This document shows positions 1 to 43,883 of a stretch of 64,000 nt of DNA, piece after piece. Numbering within the stretch: position 1 is the first letter of the stretch; each line of letters opens with the position of its first letter. This DNA is from Gammaproteobacteria bacterium (GTDB lineage: Bacteria > Pseudomonadota > Gammaproteobacteria > Steroidobacterales > Rariloculaceae). The notes below the pieces were generated by a model. It was not told the origin of the DNA and searched no databases. It was given only the letters and a program-made list of their open reading frames with translations. The position numbers and the translations under genes were made by a program. Location of the stretch: the NCBI GenBank assembly GCA_036396795.1, contig DASWKF010000084.1:71002-135001 (forward strand), written 5' to 3'.

Positions 1-788
1 CGGAAGTGGAAGACCTGCGCTCGATTGCGCAGCTGAGGTTCGCGGAAGAGCTGAGCCCGCAGGTTTTCGATGGCTACGTCGAGGTGGACGGGCGCGGCAT
101 TTACCAGCTCAGGCGTCTGCCCGCCGAAGACGACCCGCAGTATTTCCGCAGCCAGCGAGTCCGCGAGCGCGAGCACGTTTTCATCGATACGCTCAACCAG
201 CACTATGCCGACTTCTACCAGGACGCAGGTGATTCCTACGACGGTTGGCGCGAGTATGCCCGCGAGGAAGCCATCTCGATTCGCGAGCTGCAGCGTTCGT
301 CGCGCTGGCGAACGGGGATGGGTATTGCGACGATCGTCGCCTCGGTGTTGTATGGCGCCAATAGCGACGGTCAATTCAGCGACAGGATCGTTCGCGACAC
401 CTTGATGTACATGGGTATGGATCTCATCAGGACGGCGCGCGTGCGCCGCGAGGAGAAGCGGCTCCACGCCGAGGCGCTCGAGGAGTTGTCCGCGAGTTTC
501 GACGAAGAAGTCAGACCGTTGGTCGTGGAGATCGAAGGCACTCAGCACCGATTGACCGGCACGGCGGAAATTCAGTACGAGGAATGGCGCGAGCTTCTGC
601 GGCAGCTGTACGAGGCCGAAACCGGATTCACAACAGAGATCGACGTCTATACGGAGGAGCAGGCCGAGACGCTCGAGCCGGACGACGGTCTCGAGACGAC
701 CCCGATCGACGCCGAGGCCTTCGAGGCGGAAGGCGATGCCCAGCAAGCGCCCGCGGACAACTTTGCCGGAGCCACAGCCGGGATCTGA
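1..788 (+). CDS. hypothetical protein, 5' end probably outside the window
   Basis: The frame stays open leftward to position 3; the first listed start is a GTG at 6. No motif recognised. One short hydrophobic stretch (MGIATIVASVLYGA) and an acidic C-terminus. Same strand as the cluster downstream and directly upstream of it. Confidence 0.5.
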   Translation, partial: EVEDLRSIAQLRFAEELSPQVFDGYVEVDGRGIYQLRRLPAEDDPQYFRSQRVREREHVFIDTLNQHYADFYQDAGDSYDGWREYAREEAISIRELQRSSRWRTGMGIATIVASVLYGANSDGQFSDRIVRDTLMYMGMDLIRTARVRREEKRLHAEALEELSASFDEEVRPLVVEIEGTQHRLTGTAEIQYEEWRELLRQLYEAETGFTTEIDVYTEEQAETLEPDDGLETTPIDAEAFEAEGDAQQAPADNFAGATAGI

Positions 789-864
789 TCTCCGGCGGAA
801 ATTCGCGCTGACCGAAAGCTCCGCCCGGCGGCAGCCCGCGTCAGCCCCGCCGGCGCTGCCCCCG

Positions 865-1662
865 ATGATCCACGGCGAGCTGCGACTCACCTCCAAATTG
901 GGCGGCGGCGCGGTCACCGAGGTCTGGCACGCCGTTACGCCGGCAGGCAGCGGCGTCGCGGTAAAGCTGCCCTTGCCCGAATGGGCAGGCCACCCGGGCG
1001 CGGCGAAGCTGGTGGAGCGCGAATGGCGCCATTTGCTCGTGGCGGCGCACCCTGGTGTCGTCCGACCGCTGCATTTGGTCGCGACGGCGCGGGGCCCCGG
1101 GCTGGTCGCCGAGCTCCTCGACGGAGGCGATCTCGTCTCTCTCTGCGGCAGCCATCCGAGGCATTGGGCCAGGGCTTGCCGCCAAATCGCCGCAGCGCTG
1201 AACCATCTCCACGAGCGCGGCATCGTCCATCGAGACGTCAAGCCCGGCAATGTCCTTTTCGATTGCCGCGGTGACGCTAAGCTCATCGACTTGGCGCTAG
1301 CGCAAAGATCGGGCAGCGTCGCAAGCGCGGGCGGCGGCACACCGGCTTACCAGAGCCCGAGCCAGCGAAGCGGCGCTGCTGCCCGCGACGCGGACGACAC
1401 GCACGCTTTTGCGGTGCTGCTCTACGAGCTCTTGACGGGGCGCTTACCCTTCGGCCGGCAGCCGACCTTGGCGGACTTGGAAAGGCGGCCGCCGTCCCCA
1501 ATGAAACTGACGCCGCGGCACGCCGCGGACGCGATGCTGGCGGAGCTCACCAAGCGCGTCGTGGACCTGCTGACGGCTGCGGGGCACCTTGCGGCCGACG
1601 CGATGCCGGCGATCGAGCGGAGCTTAGACGCTATCATTGCCGCTCACGGCCAGGAAGCTTGA
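865..1662 (+). CDS. Hanks-type Ser/Thr protein kinase, catalytic domain only
   Basis: Ordered motifs: Gly-loop LGGGAVTEV, VAVK lysine, catalytic loop HRDVKPGN. DLA replaces DFG and there is no clean APE. ATG 865 lies 10 aa before the Gly-loop; the alternative ATG 736 would overlap the previous gene by 53 nt. Confidence 0.8.
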   Translation: MIHGELRLTSKLGGGAVTEVWHAVTPAGSGVAVKLPLPEWAGHPGAAKLVEREWRHLLVAAHPGVVRPLHLVATARGPGLVAELLDGGDLVSLCGSHPRHWARACRQIAAALNHLHERGIVHRDVKPGNVLFDCRGDAKLIDLALAQRSGSVASAGGGTPAYQSPSQRSGAAARDADDTHAFAVLLYELLTGRLPFGRQPTLADLERRPPSPMKLTPRHAADAMLAELTKRVVDLLTAAGHLAADAMPAIERSLDAIIAAHGQEA

Positions 1663-1666
1663 GAAG

Positions 1667-3181
1667 GTGGAAGAGCGACACGATCGGGATCCGGGGCACG
1701 AAGAAGTCATCGTGCCCGTAAAGGCATCGCAGGCGCCAGCTTCGCCGGCGCCCGTGCTCGAGGGACGGGCGCCGCGCGCGTCACGGTTGCCGCTCATTGC
1801 CGTCGGACTCCTGTTACTGACCCTGGCCGGCGGCGTCTTCTTCGTATTGCCGAATTGGGTGGCTGAGCAGTCTCCGTCTCCCGAGGTTCGCGCCGAGCTC
1901 GAGCCGCCAATCCCGAATGCGCCCGAGGCACCGGCTTTATCGCCGGAGGAGCTCGCGGCGCTGCAGCAGCAGGCCGAATCCCTGCTCGCGGAGCTGCTGA
2001 CGCAGCAGGCTCGTCTGGAAGCGTTTTCGGCTTCCGAATGGGGAGCGGGCGCGTGGACGGAGTATCGAGAATCGTCTCGAGCCGGGGACGATGCCTATCT
2101 CGCGAATGCTTTCCACGATGCCGTGCCGGCGTATTCGCGGGCGCTGGAGCTTGGCGCGCAGTTGCTCGAGAGGTCGACCACGATCGTCGACGCGGCGCTC
2201 GAGGCGGGCCGCGCCGCGCTGGAGGCCGGCAATGCAGCCGTGGCCGCCGAGCAATACGGCCTCGTGCTTGCGATAGACGCCGAGAACAGCGTGGCGCGAG
2301 AGGGTCTGGCGCGGGCGGAGAAGCTTCCCGAGGTGCTGGCTCTGGTGCGTCAGGCCCAAGACGCGCAGCGGGCGGGAGAGCTCGAGCAGGCCGCGCAGCA
2401 CTATCGAGAGGCGCTTGCGATCGATGCCGCTTGGCTACCCGCGAGCAGCGCGCTCGCGGATGTCGAGGAAATGCTTCGCGATCGAGGATTCGAGGCGCAG
2501 ATGTCCCATGGCTTGGCCGCGCTCGCGGCCGAGGACTACGACCGCGCCCACGAGTTCTTCAACGCCGCGCTCGTGATTCGTCCGGGTGCGACCGAGGCCC
2601 TGGACGGGAGCTTGCAGGCTGAGCAGGGGCAGCGGCTCGACCAGATAGCCCTGATCGAGGCGCGAGCGCTCGCGTTCGAACGGCGTGAGCTCTGGAGTCA
2701 GGCCATCGAGCAGTACGAACACGCATTGGAAACGGATACGACGCTGATCTTCGCCCAGCAGGGCCTCACGCGCACGCGAGCCAGGGCCGACTTGGACACG
2801 AAGCTCGGCCATTTGCTCGCGAACCCGAATCTGCTTTTCGACGACGGCGTTCTGGCGGACTCGCGCGAGCTGCTTGCAGAAGCTCGCGCGATCGAGGAAC
2901 GCGGTCAACGCCTCACCGGGCAGATCGAGGAGCTAGGGCGCCTTGTCACGCTCGCTTCGACGCCGGTCACGGTCGAGCTGCGGTCCGACCAGATGACCGA
3001 CGTCATGCTCTATCGCATCGGCGAGCTCGGTGCGTTCGCGGTGACCACCGTGGAGCTCAGGCCGGGAACCTACACCGCAGTCGGCAGCCGCAACGGCTAT
3101 CGGGACGTTCGCGAGACTTTCACCGTGTACCCCGGTCGCGAGCTCGCGCCGATTCGTGTGCAGTGCGTCGAGCCGATTTGA
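1667..3181 (+). CDS. single-pass membrane protein with TPR-like helical repeats and a C-terminal beta-rich (PEGA-like) module
   Basis: TM segment LPLIAVGLLLLTLAGGVFFVL, then Ala/Leu-rich repeat region. C-terminus VTVELRSD...YTAVGSRNGYRDVRETFTV. Start is GTG 1667 (AGGAAG 10 nt upstream) or TTG 1637, which overlaps the kinase stop. Confidence 0.6.
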   Translation: MEERHDRDPGHEEVIVPVKASQAPASPAPVLEGRAPRASRLPLIAVGLLLLTLAGGVFFVLPNWVAEQSPSPEVRAELEPPIPNAPEAPALSPEELAALQQQAESLLAELLTQQARLEAFSASEWGAGAWTEYRESSRAGDDAYLANAFHDAVPAYSRALELGAQLLERSTTIVDAALEAGRAALEAGNAAVAAEQYGLVLAIDAENSVAREGLARAEKLPEVLALVRQAQDAQRAGELEQAAQHYREALAIDAAWLPASSALADVEEMLRDRGFEAQMSHGLAALAAEDYDRAHEFFNAALVIRPGATEALDGSLQAEQGQRLDQIALIEARALAFERRELWSQAIEQYEHALETDTTLIFAQQGLTRTRARADLDTKLGHLLANPNLLFDDGVLADSRELLAEARAIEERGQRLTGQIEELGRLVTLASTPVTVELRSDQMTDVMLYRIGELGAFAVTTVELRPGTYTAVGSRNGYRDVRETFTVYPGRELAPIRVQCVEPI

Positions 3182-5616
3182 TGACGATGAACCCAGATTG
3201 GGTAATCAGGGCCGAGATCGGCGGTGAGTCGAGGTACTTCACGGCGGACTCGTTGCCGATCCTAGTGGGGGCCGATACCCAGGCCGATATTCGCTTGCAG
3301 GGCGTGTCGGGGTCGGTGCAGATCGGCGTGCTGGAAGGCGCATTCTTCGTGCAGGCGGGGCGTGAGACGCGCAACCTGCGCGTCGACGGCGAGCTCGTCC
3401 GCGGCTCCAGGCGCCTCAAGGGCAACGAGGCGATCGCGCTCGACAGCGCGCGGCTGGGCTGCCGTTTGGACGACGAACGGCTGGCCATCACGATCGAAGG
3501 CCAAATCACGGGGGGTGACACGGCCCCGCCCGATCTCGACGAGCTCGCTCGCGAGAGCGACGACTTCGGCGCCGTTGAAATCAAGCCGATCAGCTTTCGT
3601 CCGGCAGCGAGCGCCGCGCCTGGCGAGGGCCGGCGGCGCGCGAGTGCCGCCGGCGTCGGCGTGACGGCTGCTTTCGGCGTGCTCGCTGTGCTCGGCTGGT
3701 TCGCCTTCACCGCGAAGTCCGTCGAGATCATCGTGACGCCTGTGCCCGAGGAGCTTCGCCTGCCCGGCACGCTGTTGAAGCTCAAGCTCACCGACCGTTT
3801 CCTGCTCAGATCGGGGCAGCACCGCGTTGAAGCCGCGTTGGCCGGTTACTATCCGCTGGACACGACCATCGAGGTCGGCCCGGCGCCGGACCAGTCGATC
3901 GGGCTCGAGCTCGAGAGACTACCCGGGCTCGTCACGCTCGCGACGGAACCCGCCGTCGGCGCGGAGGTCCGGCTCGACGGCGATCGGCTCGGAACCACGC
4001 CGTTGCAGGACGTGGAAATCCGACCCGGGAGGCACCGGCTGGAATTCGTCGCCGAACGTTTTCTCGCCGAGGTTCGAGAGCTCGACGTCACTGGCGGCGG
4101 TGAGCGCCAGAGCCTCAACGTGGTGCTGACTCCGAGCTGGGCGCCCGTGAGTTTCAGCAGCGAGCCCGCGGGTGCCGAAGTGCTGGTCGACGGACGCGCG
4201 CTGGGCGTTACGCCGATCGAGCTCGAGCTGACGGCGGGTGAACGGGACGTCGAGCTTCGGCTGCCTGGCTACAACGCTTGGCGCGACACGCTCGTCGTTT
4301 ATGCCGACCAGCCCGAGGTCGTACCGCCGGTCCGCCTGACCCAAGCCGACGGGCGAGTCGAGCTGATTACCGACCCGGCCGGCGCTGTGGTGAGCGTCAA
4401 CGGCGAGTTTCGTGGGCAGACACCGTTGACCTTGCGCCTCGACCCTGGAAGGCAGCATTCGATCAACTTGAGCAAGCCCGGCTACGAGCCGGTCACCGAG
4501 ACACTTTCCGTCGCCGCCGATAGCGGCCGGCGACTGAGTCTGGACCTAGTCGCGCAGCTCGGTGTCGTGGATGTCTCGAGCGAGCCGCCGGGCGCGCAAG
4601 TTTGGGTGGACGGCGAGCGCGCCGGAACGACGCCGCAACAGCTGACGCTGACCGCTCTGCCGCATCGGCTGGAACTACGGCAGGACGGCTACGCGAGCGT
4701 GAGCACAGAGCTCACGCCCAGGCCGGGGTTTCCGCAGGCGTGGGCGGCCGTCCTCGAGCGGCAAGATTCGCTTTCGGGGTCGGGTTATCGCGCATCGATC
4801 GAGACGAGCCTGGGGCAGGCGCTCAGGCTCGTATTGCCGGGAGAGTTCACCATGGGTTCTTCGCGGCGCGAGCAGGGACGCCGCACCAACGAGGTGCTGA
4901 GACCCGTGCGGCTCAGCCGGGCGTTCTATCTGGGCGTGACGGAGGTCAGCAACGCGCAGTTTCGCGCCTTCAGGCCCGATCACGACTCCGGAGACTTTTC
5001 CGGCGTGAGCCTCAACGAGGACGAGCAACCCGTCGTGCGCGTCTCCTGGGAAGAGATCGCGGAGTACTTGAACTGGTTGAGCATCAGGGACGGCCTGCAG
5101 CCCGTCTACGAGGAAGCGAACGGCGCCTGGACCGCAGTGAGGCCTCTACGCAGCGGCTATCGGCTGCCGACCGAGGCGGAATGGGCCTGGGCCGCGCGTT
5201 TCGCCGAGCAGGACGAGCCCCTGGTCTTTCCCTGGGGCGCCGAGCTGCCCCCGCCGGACCGTTTCGGCAACTTCGCGGATCTGTCGGCCGCGCAGCTGCT
5301 GCCGACGACCCTGGTGACTTATAACGACGGTTTCGCGGTTTCCGCGCCCGTAGGCAGCTTCGCCGCCAACGCCGTCGGGATTTTCGATCTGGGCGGAAAT
5401 GTGGCCGAATGGGTTCAGGATTACTATGAGATCGGCCGAAGCGTGACGGACGAGGTCGCCGTCGACCCGCTCGGACCGGAAAGCGGCCGCTTCCGGGTGG
5501 TTCGGGGGTCGAGCTGGCGCAGCGCGACCGTCACGGATCTGCGCAGCGCCGCGAGGAACTACAGTGCCGAAGCGCGAGAAGACGTCGGTTTCAGAGTTGC
5601 CAGAAACCTGGAATGA
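3181..5616 (+). CDS. FHA-like / TM / 5x PEGA / formylglycine-generating-enzyme (SUMF1) domain protein
   Basis: Degenerate FHA-like N-terminus (ILVGADTQADIRLQG...FFVQAG...LRVDGELV). TM segment AAFGVLAVLGWFAFTA. Five PEGA-type repeats, e.g. PAGAEVLVDGRALGVTPIELEL, PAGAVVSVNGEFRGQTPLTL, PPGAQVWVDGERAGTTPQQL. C-terminal FGE-sulfatase motifs RVSWEEIAEYLNWLS, YRLPTEAEWAWAAR, GNVAEWVQDYY, RVVRGSSW. ATG 3181 overlaps the upstream stop (TGATG). Confidence 0.8.
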   Translation: MTMNPDWVIRAEIGGESRYFTADSLPILVGADTQADIRLQGVSGSVQIGVLEGAFFVQAGRETRNLRVDGELVRGSRRLKGNEAIALDSARLGCRLDDERLAITIEGQITGGDTAPPDLDELARESDDFGAVEIKPISFRPAASAAPGEGRRRASAAGVGVTAAFGVLAVLGWFAFTAKSVEIIVTPVPEELRLPGTLLKLKLTDRFLLRSGQHRVEAALAGYYPLDTTIEVGPAPDQSIGLELERLPGLVTLATEPAVGAEVRLDGDRLGTTPLQDVEIRPGRHRLEFVAERFLAEVRELDVTGGGERQSLNVVLTPSWAPVSFSSEPAGAEVLVDGRALGVTPIELELTAGERDVELRLPGYNAWRDTLVVYADQPEVVPPVRLTQADGRVELITDPAGAVVSVNGEFRGQTPLTLRLDPGRQHSINLSKPGYEPVTETLSVAADSGRRLSLDLVAQLGVVDVSSEPPGAQVWVDGERAGTTPQQLTLTALPHRLELRQDGYASVSTELTPRPGFPQAWAAVLERQDSLSGSGYRASIETSLGQALRLVLPGEFTMGSSRREQGRRTNEVLRPVRLSRAFYLGVTEVSNAQFRAFRPDHDSGDFSGVSLNEDEQPVVRVSWEEIAEYLNWLSIRDGLQPVYEEANGAWTAVRPLRSGYRLPTEAEWAWAARFAEQDEPLVFPWGAELPPPDRFGNFADLSAAQLLPTTLVTYNDGFAVSAPVGSFAANAVGIFDLGGNVAEWVQDYYEIGRSVTDEVAVDPLGPESGRFRVVRGSSWRSATVTDLRSAARNYSAEAREDVGFRVARNLE

Positions 5617-5667
5617 TCGGTTGCGAGAGGGGTCTAACATGACGATTTTTTGTCGGAGGCCGCTGGT

Positions 5668-5877
5668 ATGAAACTTACTCGATGGATCGTTGCGGGCGTG
5701 CTGTTCGCGGCCGCCGCGTTCGTTTCCGTGGGCCAGGAGCCCGGATCCGAAAACCCTCCCGCGCGGGATGATTCCACGGAAGCGCCGGCCGATGACGCGC
5801 GCACCTTGGAAGAGATCTTCATTCCCAGCGAGGAGATCGCTGCCGACGAGGAAGTCACCTTCCCGATCGATATTTAG
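5668..5877 (+). CDS. small secreted acidic protein (69 aa)
   Basis: GGAGG 8 nt upstream of ATG 5668. Signal-peptide-like N-terminus MKLTRWIVAGVLFAAAAFVSVG, followed by a Glu/Asp/Pro-rich tail. No family recognised. Confidence 0.5.
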   Translation: MKLTRWIVAGVLFAAAAFVSVGQEPGSENPPARDDSTEAPADDARTLEEIFIPSEEIAADEEVTFPIDI

Positions 5878-5908
5878 CCGGAGCCGACGCCGCGGAGCTC
5901 ACCAGCAC

Positions 5909-6715
5909 ATGAACCGTACGTTCCCAACGGAATTCCTCTATCAAGTGTTCGCCCTGATCATCGCGGTGATCATCGTGCACGCGGTCTATGTGACCGTGGT
6001 CCGCCCGCGAGCGACCGAAGCCCTTGCTGAGCAGACTCTCAGAATCCAGGAGGAGGAGAGCTATACGGTCGAACGCTCTTTGTGGGTGCTGCTCAGGGAC
6101 TATGAGCAGGAAGCCTGTTTCGTGCTGATGATTTGGGCATTCTCGATCATGGGCTTCAAGGGCAGGCAAGCTCTTTCGGAACGATCCCTGCTGCAGCGAG
6201 AGCTGATCCCGGTCCGCGGCGGGGTGAGAATTCTTCCCGAGGATACGCGCGAATACGCGCGCACTATCCAGGCGCTTCCCGATCGCATGCGGGAGATGCT
6301 GTTGCCCAGGGTGTTGCTGTCCTCACTGGAGCGGTTCGGCTCGACGCGCAACGTCCAGGACGTGTCCTCCGTCGCCAATACCCTGTGCGAATCCGAAGGC
6401 GAGAGGTTGGAGTCCGAGCTGTCGATGATCCGCTACATCGCGTGGGCAATTCCTTCCGTGGGGTTCATCGGGACGGTTCGCGGCATCGGCGATGCGCTCG
6501 GGCAGGCCCACCGGGCGGTTGACGGCGACATAACAGGCGTAACTCAGAGCTTGGGCACGGCGTTCAACTCGACCTTCATCGCGCTGCTCATCTCTATCGT
6601 CGTGATGTTCTTGGTGCACCAGCTGCAGTTGCTTCAAGAACGCTTGGTCTTCGACACGCAGACCTACATCGACCACAACCTGATCCGACACATGCAAGCG
6701 CGTGGCGGCCAGTAG
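5909..6715 (+). CDS. MotA/TolQ/ExbB-family proton-channel-like protein (268 aa, MotA-like 4-TM layout)
   Basis: C-terminal signature YIAWAIPSVGFIGTVRGIGDALGQ...LGTAFNSTFIALLISIVVMFLVHQL. N-terminal TM YQVFALIIAVIIVHAVYVTVV, a second TM ACFVLMIWAFSIMGF, and a roughly 90-aa loop before the signature TMs. ATG 5909 chosen; the listed 5690 start gives an Arg/Pro-rich out-of-frame-looking extension overlapping the previous gene. Confidence 0.75.
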   Translation: MNRTFPTEFLYQVFALIIAVIIVHAVYVTVVRPRATEALAEQTLRIQEEESYTVERSLWVLLRDYEQEACFVLMIWAFSIMGFKGRQALSERSLLQRELIPVRGGVRILPEDTREYARTIQALPDRMREMLLPRVLLSSLERFGSTRNVQDVSSVANTLCESEGERLESELSMIRYIAWAIPSVGFIGTVRGIGDALGQAHRAVDGDITGVTQSLGTAFNSTFIALLISIVVMFLVHQLQLLQERLVFDTQTYIDHNLIRHMQARGGQ

Positions 6716-6726
6716 CGGAACCCGCG

Positions 6727-8130
6727 ATGTCGACCATCGCCATCGATCTCAATGACGCAAGTATCGTGGTAGCCGATGCTGCCGGTGTGCGGCTCAGCGA
6801 GCCCGGCTACGCGTTCGTCGACGCTGGGCGGATCGTCACGGGACAGCAGGCGTATGCCAACGCCCGGCTGCATCCGCGACGGAGCGCGAATCGATACTGG
6901 GAACGTTTGAGCCTGGATGCAGGCAGCGCGGGGCTCGACGCCGTCGGAAGCGCGGCGGAGCTTGCGATCGCTCAGCTTCGCTCCCTGTGGGAGCGCGCCG
7001 GCGGCTCGAGCGAGGATGTGCTGGTGATGGCACCGGGCCATTACGACCGCAGCCAACTCGGCATCTTGCTGGGTCTGTTGCAGGAATGCGGTATCGGCGT
7101 GAGCTCGCTGGTCAATCCGGCAGTGGCCGCCGCGGTGCAGCCTTACCGAGGGTGTCAGCTCGTGCACGTCGATGCCGGGCTGCATAGAGTGTCGGTGACG
7201 CCTCTGGAGCAGGGCGACCAGGTCTCGGCTCTGACCGCCAGGTCGATCGACAGCATCGGCCTGGCCGCCATCAGAGACATGCTCGCGAAACGCGTTGCCG
7301 AGCTTTTCGTGCTGGAGACGCGCTTCGACCCGTTTCACAGCGCGGCCAGCGAGCAGCAGGTATACGAGCGTCTACCCGCCTGGCTGACCGAGCTTCGCAG
7401 CTCGAGCGGGAGGCTCGAGCTGCATTTGCCGCGAGAAGACGAGGACTTGAGCGTCGAGGTGGAGCGCGAGCAGTTGTTGGGCGTGACGGCGGGATTCCAC
7501 CGCGCGATCGTGCAGCTGATCGCGCAGGCGCGCGACCCCGGGGAGCGGCTCGTCATCTTGCTGTCCGATCGACTCGCCGAGCTTCCCGGATTGATCAATG
7601 AGCTCGAGCGCCTCGACGACTCCACGGTCGTGCCGCTGGAAGCGGGCGAAGCGGCCGTCGGGGTGGCTCGGCACGCCGCGGCGATCTCCAAGAGGGGCGG
7701 CGAGGTGAGGCTGCTAAAGCGATTGCCGTGGCGAGAGAGCGGCGCGACGGTCAGCCCGAGCCGGGCAGAATCAACCGCCAGGTCGGAGCCCGCGACGAAT
7801 CGCAACGGCCTGGACGACGCCAGCCATGTCGTCTATGGGGGGGTTGCCTACGCGGTGGACGGCACGGGTCTGTTGATCGGCAGAGAGCAATCGGGCGACC
7901 GCGCCACCATCGTCCTCAACGGAGGGCAGGGCGGCGTCTCGCGGGCTCATTGCGAGATCGTCAGGCGCGACGGTGAGCTCAAGCTCGTGGACTTGAGCCG
8001 CTTTGGAACTTTCGTCAACGAGAAGCGCGTCTCGGGCGAGACCGTGCTGCACGTCGCCGACGTGATTCGCATTGGATCCCCGGGAGAGCAGATTCAAGTA
8101 ATACGAATGAGGCACGCTCATGGCTCGTAA
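6727..8130 (+). CDS. Hsp70/actin-fold (ASKHA)-like protein with C-terminal FHA domain
   Basis: N-terminus IAIDLNDASIVVA (compare DnaK IGIDLGTTNS), LVNPAVAAAV (compare NEPTAAAL), VHVDAGLHRVSVT (compare DLGGGT). The C-terminal FHA is canonical: LLIGRE...VSRAHCEIVRRDGELKLVDLSRFGTFVNEKRV. Confidence 0.7.
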   Translation: MSTIAIDLNDASIVVADAAGVRLSEPGYAFVDAGRIVTGQQAYANARLHPRRSANRYWERLSLDAGSAGLDAVGSAAELAIAQLRSLWERAGGSSEDVLVMAPGHYDRSQLGILLGLLQECGIGVSSLVNPAVAAAVQPYRGCQLVHVDAGLHRVSVTPLEQGDQVSALTARSIDSIGLAAIRDMLAKRVAELFVLETRFDPFHSAASEQQVYERLPAWLTELRSSSGRLELHLPREDEDLSVEVEREQLLGVTAGFHRAIVQLIAQARDPGERLVILLSDRLAELPGLINELERLDDSTVVPLEAGEAAVGVARHAAAISKRGGEVRLLKRLPWRESGATVSPSRAESTARSEPATNRNGLDDASHVVYGGVAYAVDGTGLLIGREQSGDRATIVLNGGQGGVSRAHCEIVRRDGELKLVDLSRFGTFVNEKRVSGETVLHVADVIRIGSPGEQIQVIRMRHAHGS

Positions 8131-9211
8131 GCCCGTGAACGTGTTCTCCCTGTCGTTCCTCGACGCGATGACCTGCGGATTCGGCGCGGTGATCCTGTTC
8201 TTCATGATCATCAACGCGAATATCGAGCAACGACGGCTCGTCGTGGTTGACGATCTCGCCGCCGAAGTGGACCGAATGGAGCTCAAGGTGCTTACCGGCC
8301 GCAAGAATCTGGTGCAGCTCAAGGACGATCTGGCCAAGCTCATCGAGCAATGGGCGGTGCTCAGAGGCATGAGGCAGGAGATCATCAACGAGATCCAGCG
8401 CACGGAATCCGAATTCAGCGTCCTGAACGCGGATACCGAGGCACAGAGAGACGCCGTGCAGCAGTTGCGCGCAGACTTGGAGAGGCTCGAGCAGGAGACG
8501 CAGCGACTTCAAGCCGCCAGCATCACGCCGGAAGTCGCGGGGAACCGGATTCGCAGCTTTACCGGTGAGGGGAATCGCCAGTACCTCACGGGTCTGCGCA
8601 TGGGAGGAGAGCACGTCGTCATACTCGTGGATGCTTCCACGAGCATGCTCGACCGAACCATCGTCAACATCATTCGCCGACGCAACATGCCCGTGCAGGC
8701 GCAGATCGACGCGCCCAAGTGGCAACAGGCGGTCAATACGGTGGACTGGCTCACGACTCAGCTCCAACCCGGCACGCAGTTTCAGATCTACGCCTTCAAC
8801 GAAAAGGCGTGGTCCCTGATCGAAGGCACCGACGGTCAGTGGCTCCGCGTCACGGACGGCAGCGAGCTCGAGCAAGCCGTTCAGGCCTTGCGGCGCATGG
8901 CGCCGAAAGGGCCGACGAGCCTGCACGCGGCGTTTGCGAGCCTGAGACCGCTCAATCCGCCGCCTGACAACATCTATCTGCTCGTGGACGGTCTGCCGAC
9001 GATCGGCGAAGTCATGCCGGTAAGAGCGGGCGTGACCGGGCGTGAGCGGATGGGACATTTCAACCGCGCGGTGCGCGATTTGCCGTTCAACGTGCCCGTC
9101 AACATCATTCTGTATGCGATGGAAGGAGACCCGCAGGCGGCGCCGGCCTACTGGTGGCTCGCGCTTCGAACCGGAGGCTCGATGATGGCTCCATCGGAGG
9201 ATTGGCCATGA
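8120..9211 (+). CDS. ExbD/TolR/MotB-like N-terminal TM (buried Asp) + coiled-coil + vWA (MIDAS) protein, paralog 1
   Basis: N-terminus VNVFSLSFLDAMTCGFGAVILFFMII. Heptad-rich stretch (LKVLTGRKNLVQLKDDLAKLIEQ...LRADLERLEQETQRLQ). vWA motifs VVILVDASTSM (DxSxS), KGPTSL, YLLVDGLPT. GAGG 7 nt upstream of ATG 8120; overlaps the upstream gene by 11 nt. Confidence 0.75.
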   Translation: MARKPVNVFSLSFLDAMTCGFGAVILFFMIINANIEQRRLVVVDDLAAEVDRMELKVLTGRKNLVQLKDDLAKLIEQWAVLRGMRQEIINEIQRTESEFSVLNADTEAQRDAVQQLRADLERLEQETQRLQAASITPEVAGNRIRSFTGEGNRQYLTGLRMGGEHVVILVDASTSMLDRTIVNIIRRRNMPVQAQIDAPKWQQAVNTVDWLTTQLQPGTQFQIYAFNEKAWSLIEGTDGQWLRVTDGSELEQAVQALRRMAPKGPTSLHAAFASLRPLNPPPDNIYLLVDGLPTIGEVMPVRAGVTGRERMGHFNRAVRDLPFNVPVNIILYAMEGDPQAAPAYWWLALRTGGSMMAPSEDWP

Positions 9212-10212
9212 GCAAACGTCGCCGAGACCAAGAGAGCATGAACCTGTCGTTCCTCGACGTGATCACTTGCGGTTTCGGCGGAATCATCCTGTTGCTGGTG
9301 ATCATCAAGATCTTCGAGCCGATAAGGCTCGAAGAAAGCCACGACCAGCTCGAAGGTCTCATCGCCAGATATCAGCAGGAACTGAACGAGATCGTCGGAG
9401 AAACGGAGAGCATACGGCGCGAGAGGCTCGCGGCCGTCGAGAACGTGGAGGCCGACGAGGTCCAGGTCACGCAGCTGCAGCAGGAGCTCGTCAGGATCCG
9501 TTCCGAGGTTCTGACCAGTCAGGACAACTCGAGCGTTTCCTCGGAGCTCGTGGGGCGATTGGCGCAGGCCAAGCAGCGGCTCACGGAGGAGATGCAGCGC
9601 TTGCTGGCGAACTACAGGCCCGATCCCGACGACTACATGGTCGGAGGAATCCCCGTCGACAGCGAGTACATCATTTTCATCATCGACACCTCCGGCAGCA
9701 TGCAGCGCTACGCCTGGGACCGGGTACGCAGGCAGATTCGCGAGACCTTGGAGGTCTATCCGCAGGTCAAGGGCATCCAAGTCATGAACGACATGGGTGA
9801 ATACATGTTCAAGAGCTATCGGAACGAGTGGATTCCGGATACGCCCGGACGCAGAGAAGCGATCAACGACGCGCTAGCCGAGTGGAATGCGTTCTCCAAC
9901 TCCAGCCCGCGCGAAGGCATACTGGCCGCGATAGAGACGTTTTATGACCCCGCGAAGAAGATAAGCCTCTACGTCTACAGCGATGATTTCTCCTCCGGCT
10001 CGATCAACGCCGTAGTGCGCGAGGTCGATCGCCGCAACCGGGTCGGCGACGACGGCACGCGCCGTGTGCGGATTCACGCCGTCGCCTTTCCGGTCTACTA
10101 CGAGGTCGCCAACGGCGAGCTTCTCTCGTCGGCTCGTTTTGCGATATTGATGCGCGAGCTGTGTCAGCGCAACGGCGGCACCTTCGTCGCCCTGCCTTCG
10201 CTGCGCAGTTAG
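9208..10212 (+). CDS. ExbD/TolR/MotB-like N-terminal TM (buried Asp) + coiled-coil + vWA protein, paralog 2
   Basis: N-terminus MNLSFLDVITCGFGGIILLLVII, then a coiled-coil stretch (QLEGLIARYQQELNEIVGETESIRRERL...VTQLQQELVRIRSE). vWA motif IIFIIDTSGSM (DxSxS). ATG 9208 overlaps the upstream stop (ATGA). Confidence 0.75.
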   Translation: MSKRRRDQESMNLSFLDVITCGFGGIILLLVIIKIFEPIRLEESHDQLEGLIARYQQELNEIVGETESIRRERLAAVENVEADEVQVTQLQQELVRIRSEVLTSQDNSSVSSELVGRLAQAKQRLTEEMQRLLANYRPDPDDYMVGGIPVDSEYIIFIIDTSGSMQRYAWDRVRRQIRETLEVYPQVKGIQVMNDMGEYMFKSYRNEWIPDTPGRREAINDALAEWNAFSNSSPREGILAAIETFYDPAKKISLYVYSDDFSSGSINAVVREVDRRNRVGDDGTRRVRIHAVAFPVYYEVANGELLSSARFAILMRELCQRNGGTFVALPSLRS

Positions 10213-10329
10213 CCAGAATTCGTCATCTTTCATCCGCAATGGTGCCTGAATCCGCCACGGCCGCGGCTGGGTCGGCGGTTCTAATGACTTTCCGTGCAAT
10301 AGGGCACGGGAAATCAGAGGAGCTTGAAG

Positions 10330-11052
10330 ATGATCAAGAAAATCTTCGCCGTCGGCGTAGCGGGATTGGTACTGTCCAGCAGCGGCTGGACGGCCGAGGT
10401 GAGCCAGTCCTCGACTCAGGAGCGGATTGGTCTCAGCAGCGGAGCCGTCCTCGGCGGCTTGGCCGGTGGGCCGCTGGGGTTGGTCTTCGGCGCCGCTTTC
10501 GGCGGCTGGCTGGGTGACCAGTTTTCCGACGCGCGTCGCGAGCAGGCTGAATCCGAGGCGCGCTGGCGGCAGGCCAGCGAAGAAGCCGCCAATCTGAATG
10601 CGCTCGTGATCGGCGGTGAGCGTGCGCTCGAGCGGCAGAGCTCGGAATACCGCCGGAATCTTGTCGCGATGGAGAGTACCGTACGCGATGCCTTGGATGT
10701 CCAAGTCCTGTTCAAGACCGGAGAGAGCAGCCTGACCGATGAAACCAGGCAAAGGCTCACGCGGCTCGCTGAGCTGTTGTCACGTATGGACGGGATGCTG
10801 GTGCGAATCGAGGGTCACGCAGATGCTCGCGGCGCGCCGGAGCTCAACGAGCAGCTTTCCGTCGAGCGTGCGGTATCCGTCAGGGACATTCTCGTGCGGG
10901 CCGGCGTTCCTGCGGATCGGATCACGACCGATGCGCAAGGCGAGCGGCAAGCCAGCGCCGGCAGCGAGGATGCCGACGGCATGGCCTTCGAGCGCCGGGT
11001 GCAGCTCACGCTGCTGCCGACAGGTGCTGATCGCGCGGTCGCCCGAGAATAG
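10330..11052 (+). CDS. secreted Gly-zipper / coiled-coil / OmpA-family peptidoglycan-binding protein
   Basis: AGGAG 9 nt upstream of ATG 10330. Signal peptide MIKKIFAVGVAGLVLSSSGWTA. Gly-zipper GAVLGGLAGGPLGLVFGAAFGGWLG. OmpA_C motifs VLFKTGESSLTDETRQRL...RIEGHADARGAPELNEQLSVERAVSVRDIL. Confidence 0.85.
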   Translation: MIKKIFAVGVAGLVLSSSGWTAEVSQSSTQERIGLSSGAVLGGLAGGPLGLVFGAAFGGWLGDQFSDARREQAESEARWRQASEEAANLNALVIGGERALERQSSEYRRNLVAMESTVRDALDVQVLFKTGESSLTDETRQRLTRLAELLSRMDGMLVRIEGHADARGAPELNEQLSVERAVSVRDILVRAGVPADRITTDAQGERQASAGSEDADGMAFERRVQLTLLPTGADRAVARE

Positions 11053-11116: not shown

Positions 11117-11812
11117 TCAGCATCGTTGCGCTGGCGTCGTTGCCGGCTCGAGCAGCGACGACAAGTCCGGTGCTTCTTCCGCGGTGCCGACGCGGGGGAG
11201 CACGAGCAGCTTCGTACTACCGCAAAATCGCTCGAGCACGCCTGCGGTCTCCACTGCCGGCACGGCAGGGTCGACGGATTCGCTGACGACGATGGCGCGC
11301 AGCGGTATCCCTCTGAGCTCCAGAACCTCTCGCGCCGTGAGCGCATGACTGATGGCGCCCAGATAGCTGCCCGTCACGAGAACGGTCTCGACCTCGAGCA
11401 TGGCGATCCAATCGACAACCGTATGCCGCCGATCGAGCGGTACCATGACGCCGCCGACTCCCTCGATCAGCACGACGCCGGCATGCTCGCGTCCCGAGCT
11501 GAAGTCGAGTAGCGCGTCGAACGGGATCTCGCGATTTTCCCTGGCTGCCGCAAGATCCGGTGACAGCGGCGCCCCGAAGCGCCACGGACTGATGCGATCC
11601 AGATGCGCGTCGTCGATCGGCAGACCGAGGGCGCTCAGCAGTAGACCGGCGTCCGATTCGGCGACCTTGGCGGCGTCGAATCCGGTGATCACGGGTTTGA
11701 TGGCATCGACGCTCACGCCCTGTCGCCGCAATTGGGCAATCAGTGCCCTGGCGAGAAATGTCTTGCCGATGTCCGTGCCGGCGCCGGTAATGAATAGCCT
11801 AGAACCTATCAT
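11117..11812 (-). CDS. bioD: dethiobiotin synthetase
   Basis: FITGAGTDIGKT P-loop, KPV, and LIEGVGGVMVP, collinear with E. coli BioD. Start overlaps the bioF stop by 4 nt. Confidence 0.9.
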   Translation of the reverse strand: MIGSRLFITGAGTDIGKTFLARALIAQLRRQGVSVDAIKPVITGFDAAKVAESDAGLLLSALGLPIDDAHLDRISPWRFGAPLSPDLAAARENREIPFDALLDFSSGREHAGVVLIEGVGGVMVPLDRRHTVVDWIAMLEVETVLVTGSYLGAISHALTAREVLELRGIPLRAIVVSESVDPAVPAVETAGVLERFCGSTKLLVLPRVGTAEEAPDLSSLLEPATTPAQRC

Positions 11813-12996
11813 GCGGAATATTGAGACAGGTTCTGATCAAGGCTCGAGAGCACGCGGTCGATTGCGGCGGCGAGGTCCTCGACGTCGCTTTCGGCGTGCA
11901 TTGCAGAGAAGGCACATCGGAGCCGGGCGGTGCCCGCCGGAACCGTCGGCGGGCGGATCGCCACGACGAGGTAGCCGAGATCTTCGAGGTTCCTGCTGGC
12001 GCTCAGCGCCCGCTCGGGCGTACCGAGCAGAATCGGCACGATGGCGCTCTGCGCCTCGGGCTGACCACGTCGTTTCGCGAACAGCCGCGCATTCGCAAGC
12101 GGCTTGGCCACGAGCTCGGCATCTGAACCGATGATCTCCAGTGCCTTGCCGGCGGCGGCGAGCGTTCCCGGCGGCAGGCCCGTCGTGTAGATGAGGCTGC
12201 GCGCGCGATTGCGAATCAACTCTGCGACGCTATGGCTCGTGCATAGATAGCCCCCATAGGCGCCGACGGCCTTGGAGAGCGTGCCCATCTGCAGCGGAAT
12301 CTGCAGCGCAGCGCCGCCCTCGATCGCCGACCCACGGCCGTTGCCGAGCACTCCGAGCCCATGCGCGTCGTCCGTCATGAGCCAGGCATCGTGGGCAATT
12401 GCGCTTGCGAGCAGCTCGTCCAGCCGCGGCCGATCGCCGTCCATGCTGAAAACGCCCTCGGTGAGTACCAGGCAGTGACGGTGGCGTCGTCGCTCGCTTC
12501 GAAGCAGCTCGCCGGCTTGACCCACGTCGTTGTGCGCGAAGGTGAGGACGCGGCTACGCGCCAAGACCGTGCCGGCAAACAGACAGCTATGACAATGCTC
12601 GTCGATGATGATGAGGTCTTCCGGTCCGACCAACGCGGGTACCACGCCGATATTCGTGAGGTAGCCGCTGCCGAACACCACCGCATCCTCGGTCCCCTTA
12701 ATATCCGCCAAGCGCTCCTCGAGCTCGCGATGCAGGGGATGGTTCCCCGATACGAAGCGCGATGCACCGGCTCCGGCGCCGAAATCCCGGGTGGCGCGGC
12801 AGGCGGCCTCGATTACTTCCGGATGCAGTGACAGGCCGAGATAGTCGTTGCACGCAAAAGAAATCAGCTCTTTGCCGCCGCGCAGGATCTTTCCGCCGTC
12901 CGACCTCGTGGTCGGCGACAGCGTCCGGCGCAGGTTCTCGCTCTGCAACTTCTCGAGCTTGCTTGCAGCGAAAGCTTCCAAAGATCGTTGTCTCAA
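11809..12996 (-). CDS. bioF: 8-amino-7-oxononanoate synthase
   Basis: NDYLGLS, GSGYLTN, FSMDGD and the PLP-lysine context GTLSKAVG. Confidence 0.9.
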   Translation of the reverse strand: MRQRSLEAFAASKLEKLQSENLRRTLSPTTRSDGGKILRGGKELISFACNDYLGLSLHPEVIEAACRATRDFGAGAGASRFVSGNHPLHRELEERLADIKGTEDAVVFGSGYLTNIGVVPALVGPEDLIIIDEHCHSCLFAGTVLARSRVLTFAHNDVGQAGELLRSERRRHRHCLVLTEGVFSMDGDRPRLDELLASAIAHDAWLMTDDAHGLGVLGNGRGSAIEGGAALQIPLQMGTLSKAVGAYGGYLCTSHSVAELIRNRARSLIYTTGLPPGTLAAAGKALEIIGSDAELVAKPLANARLFAKRRGQPEAQSAIVPILLGTPERALSASRNLEDLGYLVVAIRPPTVPAGTARLRCAFSAMHAESDVEDLAAAIDRVLSSLDQNLSQYSA

Positions 12997-13154
12997 TACC
13001 GTGCTCCCAAACGAGCTTCAATCAAGCTAACCTATCCGCTGATGGGTAACGACAGTGATACCCGCGGATGACGAGTTGCATCAGTATATCGCTCTGACGA
13101 CCGCTACGAGCAGGGCCGGATTCGTCGCAACCGCCGTGGCGGGACGCTGACGCG

Positions 13155-14957
13155 ATGAGCCGGGCCGGATTCAGCTGCGCGCTTTCCGCGGACATCTGGC
13201 AGAGCAAGTATCGTTACCTCGACGGCGCCGTCCCGGAGGAGAGCGTCGCGGACTCTTGGACGAGGGTTGCGGGCGCGCTCAGCAAGCATGAGGCCCACCC
13301 CGAGATCTGGGAGAACCGATTCAGAGACATTCTGGACGCATTTCGATTTCTACCGGGCGGCCGGATACTGGCGGGCGCCGGCACGCATCACCGGACGACG
13401 CTTTGCAACTGCTTCGTGATGGGATTCATTCGTGACTCCATGGACGATATTTTCGAGCGGCTGAAGGAAAGCGCGCTGACCATGCAGTGGGGCGGCGGGA
13501 TCGGTTGTGACTTCTCGACCCTGAGGCCGCGTGGATCGTTGGCGCTGCAGCGTAATACGACGGCTTCCGGGCCCGTATCGTTCATGACGATCTGGGACGC
13601 GACCTGCGCCGCGCTCATGTCCACGGGCTCGAGACGCGGTGCGATGATGGGCACTCTTCGCTGCGATCATCCGGACGTTCTGGAGTTCATCGACGCCAAG
13701 CGTGTGGCCGGCGAGCTCACGAACTTCAATTTGTCGTTGCAGATCACCGATGAATTCATGACGGCTCTATCGGAGAACGGGGAATGGCCCCTCTGTTTTC
13801 CGGATGCCAAAGTCTCGAAGACGGATTCGCGTCTGCTGCAATGGCCCGGGGCGGACCGAAAGATTCCGTGCCGGATCTTCGAAAGGGTTCCGGCTCGAGA
13901 GATCTGGGCGGCCACGATGAGCGCCGCCTACGATTCGGCGGAGCCCGGCGTGTTGTTCGTCGATCAGATCAACCGCCACAACAATCTCCACTATCGAGAG
14001 CACATAACGACGACCAACCCTTGTGGCGAGATACCTTTGCCGCCGTATGGCGCCTGCGTGCTCGGCTCCCTCAATCTGACCGCATTCGTCCGGTTCGCCT
14101 TCTCCAGGCAGGCCTCGCTGGATTTACCGGAGATCGAGCGTGTTGCGATGACGGCAACCCGGCTTCTGGACAACGTGGTGGATTGCTCCGGCTTCCCGCT
14201 CGCCGCACAGAAAGCACAGGCAGCCGGAGCCCGGCGCATCGGCGTGGGAATTACCGGTCTCGCCGATGCTTTGATCATGCTGGGCCACCGCTATGATACC
14301 GATGCGGCAAGAGAGATCGCCCGAAGTGTCGTCGAGCGCGTGCGCGACGCGGCTTACCTCGCTTCGACCCAGCTCGCGGAAGACAAGGGCAGCTTTCCTT
14401 ACTTCGACAAAGACGCGTATCTCGACGGCGAGTACGTCAAGACCTTGCCCGTGTCCATCAGGGACGCCATCGCTCGGCGCGGAATTCGCAACAGCCATCT
14501 CCTGGCTATCGCACCGACGGGAACGATCAGCCTGCTGGCGAATAATATCTCTAGCGGGATCGAGCCGGTGTTCGCAATGCAAGGGCAACGAAGGATGGTG
14601 AATCGGTCCGGCGAGCTCGAGGTTCGAAAGGCCACGGACCATGCCTACCGGCTGTGGCGGGAATCCGCTGGCAGTGATGCCGCGTTGCCGTCGACGTTCG
14701 TCACGGCGAGGGAGATAACTCCGGACGCCCACCTTCAGATGCAGGCCGCGCTGCAACCGCTAGTCGACAACTCGATCTCCAAGACCATCAACGTCCCGGA
14801 GTCTATCTCGAAAGACGACTTCGAAACGATTTATCTCAAGGCTTACGAGTTGGGGCTCAAGGGTTGCACGGTCTTCCGTGACAATCCGGTGAGGGGGCGC
14901 ATACTCTCGGATCAAAATGAAGCAATGATTCCCGGCTGCCCGGTTGTTGCTCCATGA
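13155..14957 (+). CDS. nrdJ: class II (adenosylcobalamin-dependent) ribonucleotide reductase, possibly lacking the C-terminal Cys-rich tail
   Basis: [41 protein letters not shown]. The protein ends ...IPGCPVVAP directly against the broken M50 gene. Confidence 0.85.
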
Positions 14958-42804: not shown

Positions 42805-42822
42805 TCACGGGTTATAGCCAGC

Positions 42823-43329: not shown

Positions 43330-43343
43330 GGGGGGGAGCACGA

Positions 43344-43871: not shown

Positions 43872-43883
43872 GAGCTCGATCTC

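What the first reader, a model, noticed from the sequence alone, without database searches (positions are those of the whole stretch)
8120..10212. Tandem paralogs fusing an ExbD/MotB-type proton-plug helix to periplasmic coiled-coil and vWA/MIDAS domains
Both proteins start with a short basic tail and a TM helix carrying Asp at the same relative position. The helix is followed by roughly 120 aa of heptad-rich sequence and a vWA fold (DASTS / DTSGS, later T and D ligands in paralog 1). The genes are joined by an ATGA overlap. Two distinct B-type subunits next to one A-type gene suggest a heterodimeric plug, as inferred for AglQ/AglS or paired ExbD genes. Paralog 2 has a less complete MIDAS (SNSSPREG instead of a GxT loop), so the two may have diverged in function. 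A vWA domain on a proton-driven lever arm would be an unusual output module: force-dependent capture or release of a periplasmic or outer-membrane ligand.
Basis: partly seen in the sequence, partly recalled or inferred. Interest (0 to 1): 0.75.

Follow-up and report, generated by a model that had tools for sequence, protein, structure and literature searches.

The report
Paired vWA-tipped plug subunits of a proton motor
Two neighbouring genes encode membrane proteins that join an ExbD/TolR-like, aspartate-bearing channel helix to a long periplasmic stalk and a von Willebrand A binding head. They most likely form the two-part inner subunit of a proton-driven envelope motor, a design first proposed from genome comparison in 2025 and still untested in the laboratory.

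Summary
Genes 8120-9211 (P1, 363 aa) and 9208-10212 (P2, 334 aa) overlap by ATGA. Both proteins have a basic N-tail, one TM helix with the motif SFLDxxxCGFG, a roughly 100-aa helical stalk and a C-terminal vWA fold.

- **Aspartate:** conserved in 60/60 P1 orthologs, 57/58 P2 orthologs and 111/112 family representatives clustered at 50% identity.
- **Helix:** its profile aligns Asp-on-Asp with ExbD/TolR (hhalign P 1.9e-5). It scores above 250 composition-matched shuffles and 7 natural TM decoys. It does not match MotB.
- **Partner:** the operon holds an orphan TolQ/ExbB-like gene with both pore threonines and no ExbD/TolR/MotB gene.
- **Pairing and location:** natural fusions carry the P1-type and P2-type vWA domains in one secreted or BlaR1-like polypeptide. 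This supports pairing of the two heads and a periplasmic location.

PMC12204202 (Mol Biol Evol 2025) already describes paired "TPH-vWA" genes next to tolQ-like genes.

That paper does not mention a conserved 8-10 gene operon around the pair. The operon adds a Ser/Thr kinase, a TPR protein, a PEGA/FGE-sulfatase protein and an Hsp70-like FHA protein. The ligand and the function remain unknown.

The parts
8120..9211 (+). P1: TPH-vWA paralog 1 (363 aa). Basic tail, ExbD/TolR-like transpore helix, helical stalk, and a vWA head with a complete MIDAS.
8150..8215 (+). P1 TM/transpore helix (residues 11-32). The Asp15 codon GAC is at 8162-8164.
8216..8524 (+). P1 Pro-free helical (coiled-coil-like) stalk, residues about 33-135.
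8597..9208 (+). P1 vWA domain (residues about 160-363). MIDAS residues are D171-A-S173-T-S175 (8630-8644), T266 and D290.
9208..10212 (+). P2: TPH-vWA paralog 2 (334 aa). Its start overlaps the P1 stop (ATGA).
9244..9312 (+). P2 TM/transpore helix (residues 13-35). The Asp17 codon GAC is at 9256-9258.
9313..9612 (+). P2 helical stalk, residues about 36-135.
9655..10209 (+). P2 vWA domain. It carries D160-T-S162-G-S164 (9685-9699) and D259. The canonical Thr is replaced by the conserved loop S230-N-S-S-P234.
5903..6715 (+). TolQ/ExbB/MotA-family A subunit (270 aa), the presumed pentameric partner. T191 (GFIGTVRGIG) and T224 (AFNST) are conserved.
6727..8130 (+). Cytoplasmic protein of 467 aa: a degenerate Hsp70/actin-like nucleotide-binding-fold domain plus a C-terminal FHA domain. 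Its end overlaps the P1 start by 11 nt.
3163..5616 (+). Bitopic protein of 817 aa: an N-terminal cytoplasmic domain of unknown family, a TM helix (residues 164-182), four PEGA domains and an FGE-sulfatase (GldK/PorK-like) domain. It is conserved in the operon.
1637..3181 (+). Bitopic TPR protein (514 aa, TM at residues 53-71). It is fused to the kinase in a distant locus (L142).
736..1662 (+). Ser/Thr protein kinase (308 aa).
6..788 (+). C-terminal part of a conserved lipoprotein. It is cut by the window edge; the full-length ortholog is 465 aa with a lipobox.
5650..5877 (+). Small secreted acidic protein (75 aa). It is conserved in position in the closer relatives only.
10324..11052 (+). OmpA-family peptidoglycan-binding protein with a glycine zipper (242 aa). 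It is detected downstream in 31 of the 61 genome loci.

Best explanation
P1 and P2 most likely form the heterodimeric inner ('B') subunit of an ion-driven motor of the MotAB/ExbBD/TolQR class. The outer ring would be the operon's orphan TolQ/ExbB-like protein.

Each paralog contributes one ExbD/TolR-type transpore helix. Its near-invariant Asp would sit among the ring's conserved threonines and carry the proton. Beyond the membrane, the two roughly 100-residue helices would pair into a stalk about 15 nm long. The stalk would hold a vWA1/vWA2 head in the outer periplasm.

The head, with a complete MIDAS in P1 and a variant one in P2, binds a still unknown envelope ligand. Proton flow is thereby coupled to pulling, turning or releasing that ligand.

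A Ser/Thr kinase with a TPR partner and an Hsp70-like FHA protein probably gate assembly or activity from the cytoplasmic side.

Shown here:
- the domain architecture and topology;
- Asp conservation;
- the ExbD/TolR-like helix profile;
- the orphan A subunit;
- the obligate P1/P2 pair;
- the conserved operon.

Inferred, not shown:
- 5:2 stoichiometry;
- proton conduction;
- the P1:P2 heterodimer;
- force output;
- phospho-regulation.
For: - Architecture and vWA folds.
- Asp conserved in 60/60 P1 orthologs, 57/58 P2 orthologs and 111/112 representatives.
- The helix is the most conserved part of the protein (F, L, D, C, G, F, G at 90% or more).
- hhalign against ExbD/TolR N-termini gives score 23.6, P 1.9e-5, with D aligned on D. 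TM-core shuffles give mean 11.5, sd 2.2, maximum 20 (0/250 reach the real score). Decoys score 7-11.
- The A subunit matches Pfam MotA_ExbB at 9e-14, and its Thr residues align with those of the window's own ExbB.
- No ExbD/TolR/MotB gene lies in the operon. A separate canonical ExbB-ExbD-ExbD set lies 32 kb away.
- The gene order MotA-like, Hsp70-like/FHA gene, P1, P2 is conserved in more than 90 loci, down to 37% P1 identity, and in distant relatives.
- P1-type and P2-type vWA domains are fused in one chain, in both orders.
- The ATGA overlap implies translational coupling.
- An independent published AF3 model of this family reaches the same conclusion: PMC12204202.
Against: - HMMER finds no ExbD/TolR/MotB match for the helix in Pfam or PDB. 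However, a genuine ExbD from this window also fails to find PDB ExbD by phmmer, so this negative result is weak.
- The hhalign alignment needs a 5-residue gap at CGFGA. The ExbD/TolR profile was shallow, with effectively four sequence types.
- The ExbD/TolR periplasmic domain is absent.
- Rare P2 orthologs carry Ser in place of Asp (L057, P0381).
- The Hsp70-like/FHA gene is missing in a few lineages, so it is not essential to the core.
Confidence: 0.7

Rival explanations
1. The motor works as a sensor rather than a force generator, as in Zorya. Ligand binding, or its loss, at the periplasmic vWA heads would unplug or anchor the P1/P2 dimer. The resulting rotation of the TolQ-like ring would be read in the cytoplasm by the Hsp70-like FHA protein and the kinase, producing a signal rather than mechanical work on the envelope.
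For: The same vWA1-vWA2 pair serves as the extracytoplasmic module of BlaR1-type signalling proteases encoded next to a BlaI-like repressor. It also occurs as a soluble periplasmic protein. Cytoplasmic signalling parts, a kinase and an FHA domain, are conserved in the operon.
Against: PADLOC finds no defence-type effector in the operon. The core proteins are highly conserved and chromosomal, next to housekeeping genes. The Hsp70-like/FHA gene is absent or lacks a recognisable FHA domain in some lineages. No output gene such as a transcription factor was found.
Confidence: 0.2
2. P1 and P2 are ordinary signal-anchored periplasmic vWA scaffold or adhesion proteins. The Asp-bearing helix serves only for membrane anchoring or TM-TM dimerisation. 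The TolQ-like protein works with some other partner.
For: HMMER-level searches give no ExbD/TolR match. vWA proteins with N-terminal anchors are common, for example BatA/BatB.
Against: - Signal anchors do not keep about 8 near-invariant positions, including a membrane-buried Asp, across clusters at 50% identity.
- The helix profile is specifically ExbD/TolR-like.
- The TolQ-like gene has no other B-type partner in more than 90 loci.
- No MoxR/DUF58 genes are present, as a Bat-type system would require.
Confidence: 0.08

Closest known systems
[quoted passage not shown] 4c-d; reference organism Idiomarina loihiensis)
   Same: TM-tethered vWA proteins occur in heterologous pairs. They lie next to a tolQ-like gene with no tolR/exbD/motB gene. 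[quoted passage not shown]
   Different: Sequence relatedness to the Idiomarina reference could not be tested here. The paper does not mention the kinase, FHA/Hsp70-like, TPR or PEGA/FGE-sulfatase genes. It also does not mention the vWA1-vWA2 fusions to BlaR1-like proteins or the secreted form.
ExbB-ExbD and TolQ-TolR
   Same: The A subunit belongs to the same Pfam family and has both pore Thr residues. The B-type helix has its Asp near the cytoplasmic end, and the helix profile is most similar to ExbD/TolR. N-in topology.
   Different: The ExbD/TolR periplasmic domain is absent, and no TonB/TolA-like third subunit with an SHLS motif is present. Output would go directly through the B subunits' own stalk and vWA heads. 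There are two different B subunits.
AglR-AglQ-AglS gliding motor of Myxococcus xanthus, and paired ExbD genes
   Same: One A-type gene is paired with two different TolR-like B-type genes, which implies a heteromeric plug. The window itself has an ExbB-ExbD1-ExbD2 set.
   Different: AglQ and AglS are short TolR-like proteins. In that system force is passed on by separate GltG/J proteins, and the vWA adhesin CglB is a separate outer-membrane lipoprotein.
GldL-GldM / PorL-PorM of type IX secretion and gliding
   Same: The inner dimeric subunit carries a long periplasmic arm that reaches a distal envelope complex. An FGE-sulfatase-fold protein (GldK/PorK-like; NCBIfam 2e-29, below the cut-off) is encoded alongside.
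   Different: No sequence relation between P1/P2 and GldM was found. GldM has Ig-like domains and no vWA. GldK is an outer-membrane lipoprotein, whereas the FGE-domain protein here is anchored in the inner membrane through PEGA domains.
MotA-MotB / PomAB and ZorA-ZorB
   Same: Ion-driven A/B complexes with an Asp in the B helix.
   Different: The B subunits here lack an OmpA-like peptidoglycan-binding domain; a separate OmpA-family gene follows in some lineages. The helix profile does not match MotB. No Zorya effectors are present.

Membership tests
B subunit (transpore helix) of MotA/ExbB/TolQ-class ion-driven motors | Single N-terminal TM helix, N-in, with a conserved acidic residue near its cytoplasmic end. 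| tested here: met
   D15 in P1 and D17 in P2. Asp is present in 60/60 P1 orthologs, 57/58 P2 orthologs and 111/112 representatives. The N-tails are basic.
B subunit (transpore helix) of MotA/ExbB/TolQ-class ion-driven motors | Helix sequence related to ExbD/TolR/MotB helices beyond what composition explains. | tested here: met
   hhalign against ExbD/TolR gives score 23.6, P 1.9e-5, with D on D. The score exceeds 250 of 250 TM-core shuffles (z 5.4) and 7 natural decoys. It is not met for MotB (10.8). HMMER searches were negative but uninformative.
B subunit (transpore helix) of MotA/ExbB/TolQ-class ion-driven motors | Encoded with an A subunit of the MotA/ExbB/TolQ family that has the pore-lining Thr residues. 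| tested here: met
   PF01618 matches at 9e-14, above the cut-off. T191 and T224 are conserved in 57 sequences and align with the Thr residues of the window's ExbB. Synteny holds in more than 90 loci.
B subunit (transpore helix) of MotA/ExbB/TolQ-class ion-driven motors | Physical A5:B2 complex that conducts protons. | not testable with these tools
   No multimer modelling or experiment was available. An AF3 model is reported in PMC12204202 for the family's reference.
Pfam ExbD (PF02472) / TolR proteins | ExbD/TolR periplasmic alpha/beta domain after the helix. | tested here: not met
   No PF02472 hit was found. The periplasmic part is a helical stalk plus a vWA domain.
MotB/PomB/ZorB stator subunits | C-terminal OmpA-like peptidoglycan-binding domain in the same chain. 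| tested here: not met
   P1 and P2 have no OmpA domain. An OmpA-family protein is a separate gene at 10324-11052, detected in 31 of 61 genome loci.
von Willebrand factor A (vWA) domain | Rossmann-like vWA fold. | tested here: met
   The top Foldseek hits are all vWA domains: P1 at 1e-7 with TM-score 0.72 to CLCA1 VWA, and P2 at 1e-5. Pfam scores are below the gathering cut-off: 22.4 against 27 for P1 and 21.4 against 23.8 for P2.
von Willebrand factor A (vWA) domain | Complete MIDAS, DxSxS...T...D. | tested here: met
   P1 has all five residues, conserved in 58-60 of 60 sequences. P2 has DxSxS and D in 58/58, but the Thr is replaced by a conserved SNSSP loop, so it is met only in part for P2.
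TPH-vWA family of PMC12204202 | TM-tethered vWA proteins in heterologous pairs next to a tolQ-like gene, with no tolR/exbD gene, and with a conserved Asp in the helix. | tested here: met
   All the described features are present.
TPH-vWA family of PMC12204202 | Sequence homology to the Idiomarina loihiensis reference proteins. | not testable with these tools
BatA/BatB-MoxR aerotolerance-type vWA systems | MoxR AAA+ ATPase and DUF58 genes in the operon. | tested here: not met
   Neither gene is present in the window operon or in the distant loci.
Zorya anti-phage system | ZorA with a long cytoplasmic tail, plus ZorC/ZorD-type effectors. | tested here: not met
   PADLOC gives only weak MotA/OmpA-level hits (E 0.019 for ZorA) and finds no effectors.

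The most novel reading that the evidence does not exclude
The vWA1/vWA2 pair may be a portable periplasmic ligand-recognition module that evolution has wired to three different outputs: a proton-driven motor (this operon), a BlaR1-type signalling protease, and a free periplasmic protein. In the motor version, binding of the ligand would switch the motor on or off. The kinase and the Hsp70-like FHA protein would couple that state to the cytoplasm. The operon would then be a phospho-regulated, ligand-gated rotary machine of a kind not yet described, not merely a TonB-like puller.
Probability: 0.2. Interest if true: 0.8.

Novelty: new member of a known kind. Interest (0 to 1): 0.5.

Why it matters
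Motors of the MotAB/ExbBD/TolQR class power flagella, nutrient import, envelope integrity, gliding, secretion and phage defence. A version whose inner subunits carry their own metal-dependent binding heads would be a new way to deliver proton energy to the outer envelope.

The family is widespread in uncultured marine and sediment Gammaproteobacteria: thousands of homologs, and 464 clusters at 50% identity with E up to 1e-30. It has no assigned function.

The conserved kinase/FHA/Hsp70-like partners, the PEGA/FGE-sulfatase protein and the BlaR1-type fusions found here give concrete leads to its ligand and its regulation.

Tried and rejected
- **HMMER profile of the N-terminal 38-44 residues against PDB sequences and Pfam.** Nothing was found. 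I do not count this as evidence, because the window's genuine ExbD2 also finds no PDB ExbD/TolR by phmmer.
- **Last large protein search, used to deepen the ExbD/TolR profile.** It returned almost only enterobacterial ExbD/TolR, so the profile stayed shallow, with four sequence types.
- **PDB searches with the TolQ-like and Hsp70-like/FHA proteins as single sequences.** Uninformative. A 13-sequence profile of the Hsp70-like N-domain gave weak but consistent Hsp70 nucleotide-binding-domain hits (E 0.008-0.05).
- **FHA domain at the N-terminus of the PEGA/FGE protein.** I suspected one by eye; Pfam does not detect it even at E 10, so I dropped the label.
- **Defence-system reading.** PADLOC gives no meaningful hit.
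- **Plasmid-borne relatives.** None were found.
- **Supplements of PMC12204202.** They do not contain the reference TPH-vWA sequences.
- **Taxonomy of distant representatives through cluster names.** Only 'Gammaproteobacteria bacterium' or no name at all.


Full report
**1. What is in the sequence**

The + strand carries a tight operon:
- a lipoprotein fragment (6-788, cut by the window edge);
- a Ser/Thr kinase (736-1662);
- a bitopic TPR protein (1637-3181);
- a bitopic protein with four PEGA domains and an FGE-sulfatase domain (3163-5616);
- a small secreted protein (5650-5877);
- a MotA/ExbB/TolQ-family protein (5903-6715; PF01618, 9e-14);
- a 467-aa protein with a C-terminal FHA domain (6727-8130);
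- the two genes of the finding, P1 (8120-9211) and P2 (9208-10212);
- an OmpA-family protein (10324-11052).

P2's ATG overlaps P1's TGA as ATGA. A 100% identical 334-aa database entry uses the same start. The FHA gene overlaps the P1 start by 11 nt.

Both P1 and P2 begin with a basic tail and one hydrophobic helix carrying Asp (D15 in P1, D17 in P2) inside the shared motif LSFLDxxxCGFG.

**2. Periplasmic parts**

AF2 models each protein as one long helix running out of the membrane, followed by an alpha/beta domain. In P1 the helix spans 12-100 and 106-133; in P2 it spans 2-104 and 108-135. Helix confidence is low, as expected for a monomer model of a stalk that pairs. The alpha/beta domains have pLDDT 75-93.

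Foldseek matches both domains only to vWA domains. For P1 these include 4fx5 at 1e-7 and CLCA1 VWA at TM-score 0.72. For P2 they include ITIH1, alpha2delta and CMG2. Pfam vWA hits are just under the gathering score.

The stalks are Pro-free, and their heptad a/d positions are more hydrophobic than in shuffles (3/500 for P1, 7/500 for P2). About 100 helical residues would span roughly 15 nm (my estimate at 1.5 Å per residue).

P1 has a full MIDAS: D171, S173, S175 and D290 are conserved in 60/60 sequences, and T266 in 58/60. P2 keeps DxSxS and the distal Asp in 58/58 but replaces the Thr with a conserved S-N-S-S-P loop. Because the loop is conserved, it looks like a functional variant rather than decay.

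**3. Is the helix an ExbD/TolR-type plug?**

The Asp is present in:
- 60/60 P1 orthologs and 57/58 P2 orthologs from 61 genomes;
- 111/112 family representatives clustered at 50% identity.

The helix is the most conserved part of the protein.

HMMER searches of the helix profile against Pfam and PDB found nothing. A genuine ExbD from this same window also fails to find PDB ExbD by phmmer, so that test has no power.

Profile-profile comparison with ExbD/TolR N-termini used two ExbD from the window plus enterobacterial ExbD and TolR. It aligned Asp on Asp with score 23.6, P 1.9e-5 and probability 77%.

| Comparison | Score |
|---|---|
| ExbD/TolR N-termini (real) | 23.6 |
| All-column shuffles | maximum 13.9 (0/300 reach 23.6) |
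| TM-core shuffles | mean 11.5, sd 2.2, maximum 20.0 (0/250; z 5.4) |
| Seven natural TM segments from the same operon families | 7.1-10.7 |

The helix is therefore ExbD/TolR-like, not MotB-like. There are two weaknesses. The ExbD/TolR profile is shallow, and the alignment places a 5-residue gap at CGFGA.

**4. The partner**

The A-type protein keeps the two threonines of the ExbB/TolQ pore, T191 in GFIGTVRGIG and T224 in AFNST. Both are conserved in 57 sequences. They align with the corresponding Thr residues of the window's own ExbB (BLASTP E 1e-4).

tblastn with E. coli ExbD, TolR and MotB queries found no match anywhere in the operon or in the 61 genome loci. The same query set did find the window's canonical ExbD1, and that canonical ExbB-ExbD1-ExbD2-TonB-like set sits 32 kb away. 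The A subunit is therefore an orphan unless P1 and P2 are its B subunits.

**5. Topology**

The N-tails are basic throughout the family, with consensus MxRRR.

Independently, the same two vWA domain types occur behind Sec signal peptides (P0246, P0304, P0357). They also occur as the C-terminal, extracytoplasmic part of BlaR1-like M56 proteins (P0279, P0288, P0296, P0297). These domains are 41-59% identical to the window's domains. The heads are periplasmic.

**6. Heterodimer**

- Both paralogs are present in every complete locus examined.
- They are only about 25% identical to each other, yet each is 45-87% identical to its orthologs. The duplication is therefore old and both copies are kept.
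- The genes are translationally coupled.
- In the fused proteins, one P1-type and one P2-type head always come together. The order is P1-then-P2 in the M56 fusions and P2-then-P1 in the secreted forms.

This is Rosetta-stone evidence that the two heads work as a pair. It is indirect evidence for a P1:P2 dimer.

**7. The wider system**

The gene order lipoprotein, (kinase), TPR, PEGA/FGE, TolQ-like, Hsp70-like/FHA, P1, P2 holds in 61 genome loci and in the longer metagenome loci, down to 37-45% P1 identity. All named genomes are uncultured Gammaproteobacteria, for example Ca. Rariloculaceae.

A distant relative (L142) has the same set with the kinase and the TPR protein fused. Another (L143) keeps only the TolQ-like gene, a 495-aa gene, P1 and P2. 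That set is the minimal core.

The N-domain of the 467-aa protein gives weak, consistent hits to Hsp70 nucleotide-binding domains: SSB1 at 0.008, Arp8 at 0.03 and DnaK at 0.05. Its FHA domain has the canonical GR, SxxH and N residues in this clade. No FHA domain is recognisable in a Thiotrichales-like clade (my reading of the sequences, not tested by a domain search), and the gene is absent in a few loci.

The motor core evolves slowly: the TolQ-like protein is 56-92% identical across loci, while the accessory genes range from 20% to 74%.

**8. Comparison with what is known**

A full-text search found one paper that describes this design. PMC12204202 (Mol Biol Evol 2025) reports TM-tethered vWA proteins in heterologous pairs that co-occur tightly with tolQ homologs and lack tolR/exbD. 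[quoted passage not shown] The reference organism is Idiomarina loihiensis, and the function is stated to be unknown.

That paper does not mention the kinase. The FHA/Hsp70-like gene, the PEGA/FGE gene and the BlaR1-type and secreted vWA1-vWA2 fusions do not appear in the passages I read either. These points may be new, but they are context, not a new kind of system.

**9. Verdict**

- Observation: confirmed.
- Mechanism: I put 0.7 on P1/P2 being the heteromeric B subunit of a proton motor built with the TolQ-like protein. What the vWA heads bind, and whether the machine pulls or senses, is open.
- Novelty: a new member of a recently described kind.
- Interest: moderate (0.5). The family is widespread, uncharacterised and mechanistically unusual, but the central idea is already in the literature.

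Noticed in passing
window 42160-44855: A canonical ExbB (PF01618, 8e-30), ExbD1, ExbD2 and TonB-like cluster. ExbD1 (42823-43329) has Asn where ExbD/TolR have the essential Asp (FMNLM). ExbD2 (43344-43871) keeps the Asp (LMDIF). This is a paired-ExbD set in which one copy lacks the proton-binding residue.
   Followed up: partly
L145 6001-7245: In one metagenome locus, an extra gene sits between P1 and P2. It encodes a secreted protein (P0304) made of a P2-type vWA domain followed by a P1-type vWA domain, with no TM helix or stalk.
   Followed up: partly
L144 3022-5609: A BlaR1-like M56 protease is fused to a P1-type plus P2-type vWA pair (P0279, 736 aa), next to a BlaI/Penicillinase_R-like repressor. 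The motor's head pair is reused here as the sensor of a signalling protease. Similar proteins are P0288, P0296 and P0297.
   Followed up: partly
L057 11062-12048; protein P0381: Rare P2-type proteins have Ser in place of the helix Asp (AFLSVITCGFG), while the P1 partner in L057 keeps the Asp. This suggests that one proton-binding site may suffice in some lineages.
   Followed up: no
L142 1834-4410 versus window 736-3181: The kinase and the TPR membrane protein are two ORFs overlapping by 26 nt in the window. In a distant locus they are one 858-aa gene, which suggests that together they act as a receptor kinase.
   Followed up: no
L074, L110, L029/L030 (TolQ-like gene directly upstream of P1); L034-L059 clade: The Hsp70-like/FHA gene is missing in a few lineages. 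In a Thiotrichales-like clade its C-terminal domain has lost the canonical FHA residues.
   Followed up: no
window 8001-10000: GC content drops to 0.60, against 0.65 on either side, and AT skew rises to 0.12 over P1 and P2. This probably reflects the Glu/Gln/Arg-rich stalk codons rather than foreign origin, since orthologs are syntenic everywhere.
   Followed up: no
window 3163-3650: The N-terminal ~160-residue cytoplasmic region of the PEGA/FGE-sulfatase protein looks FHA-like by eye, but no Pfam model matches it even at E 10. Its family is unknown.
   Followed up: partly
window 11117-14957: The downstream neighbours are ordinary housekeeping genes: a dethiobiotin-synthase-like gene (AAA_26) and an aminotransferase class I/II (BioF-like) gene on the minus strand, and a ribonucleotide reductase large subunit on the plus strand.
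   Followed up: no
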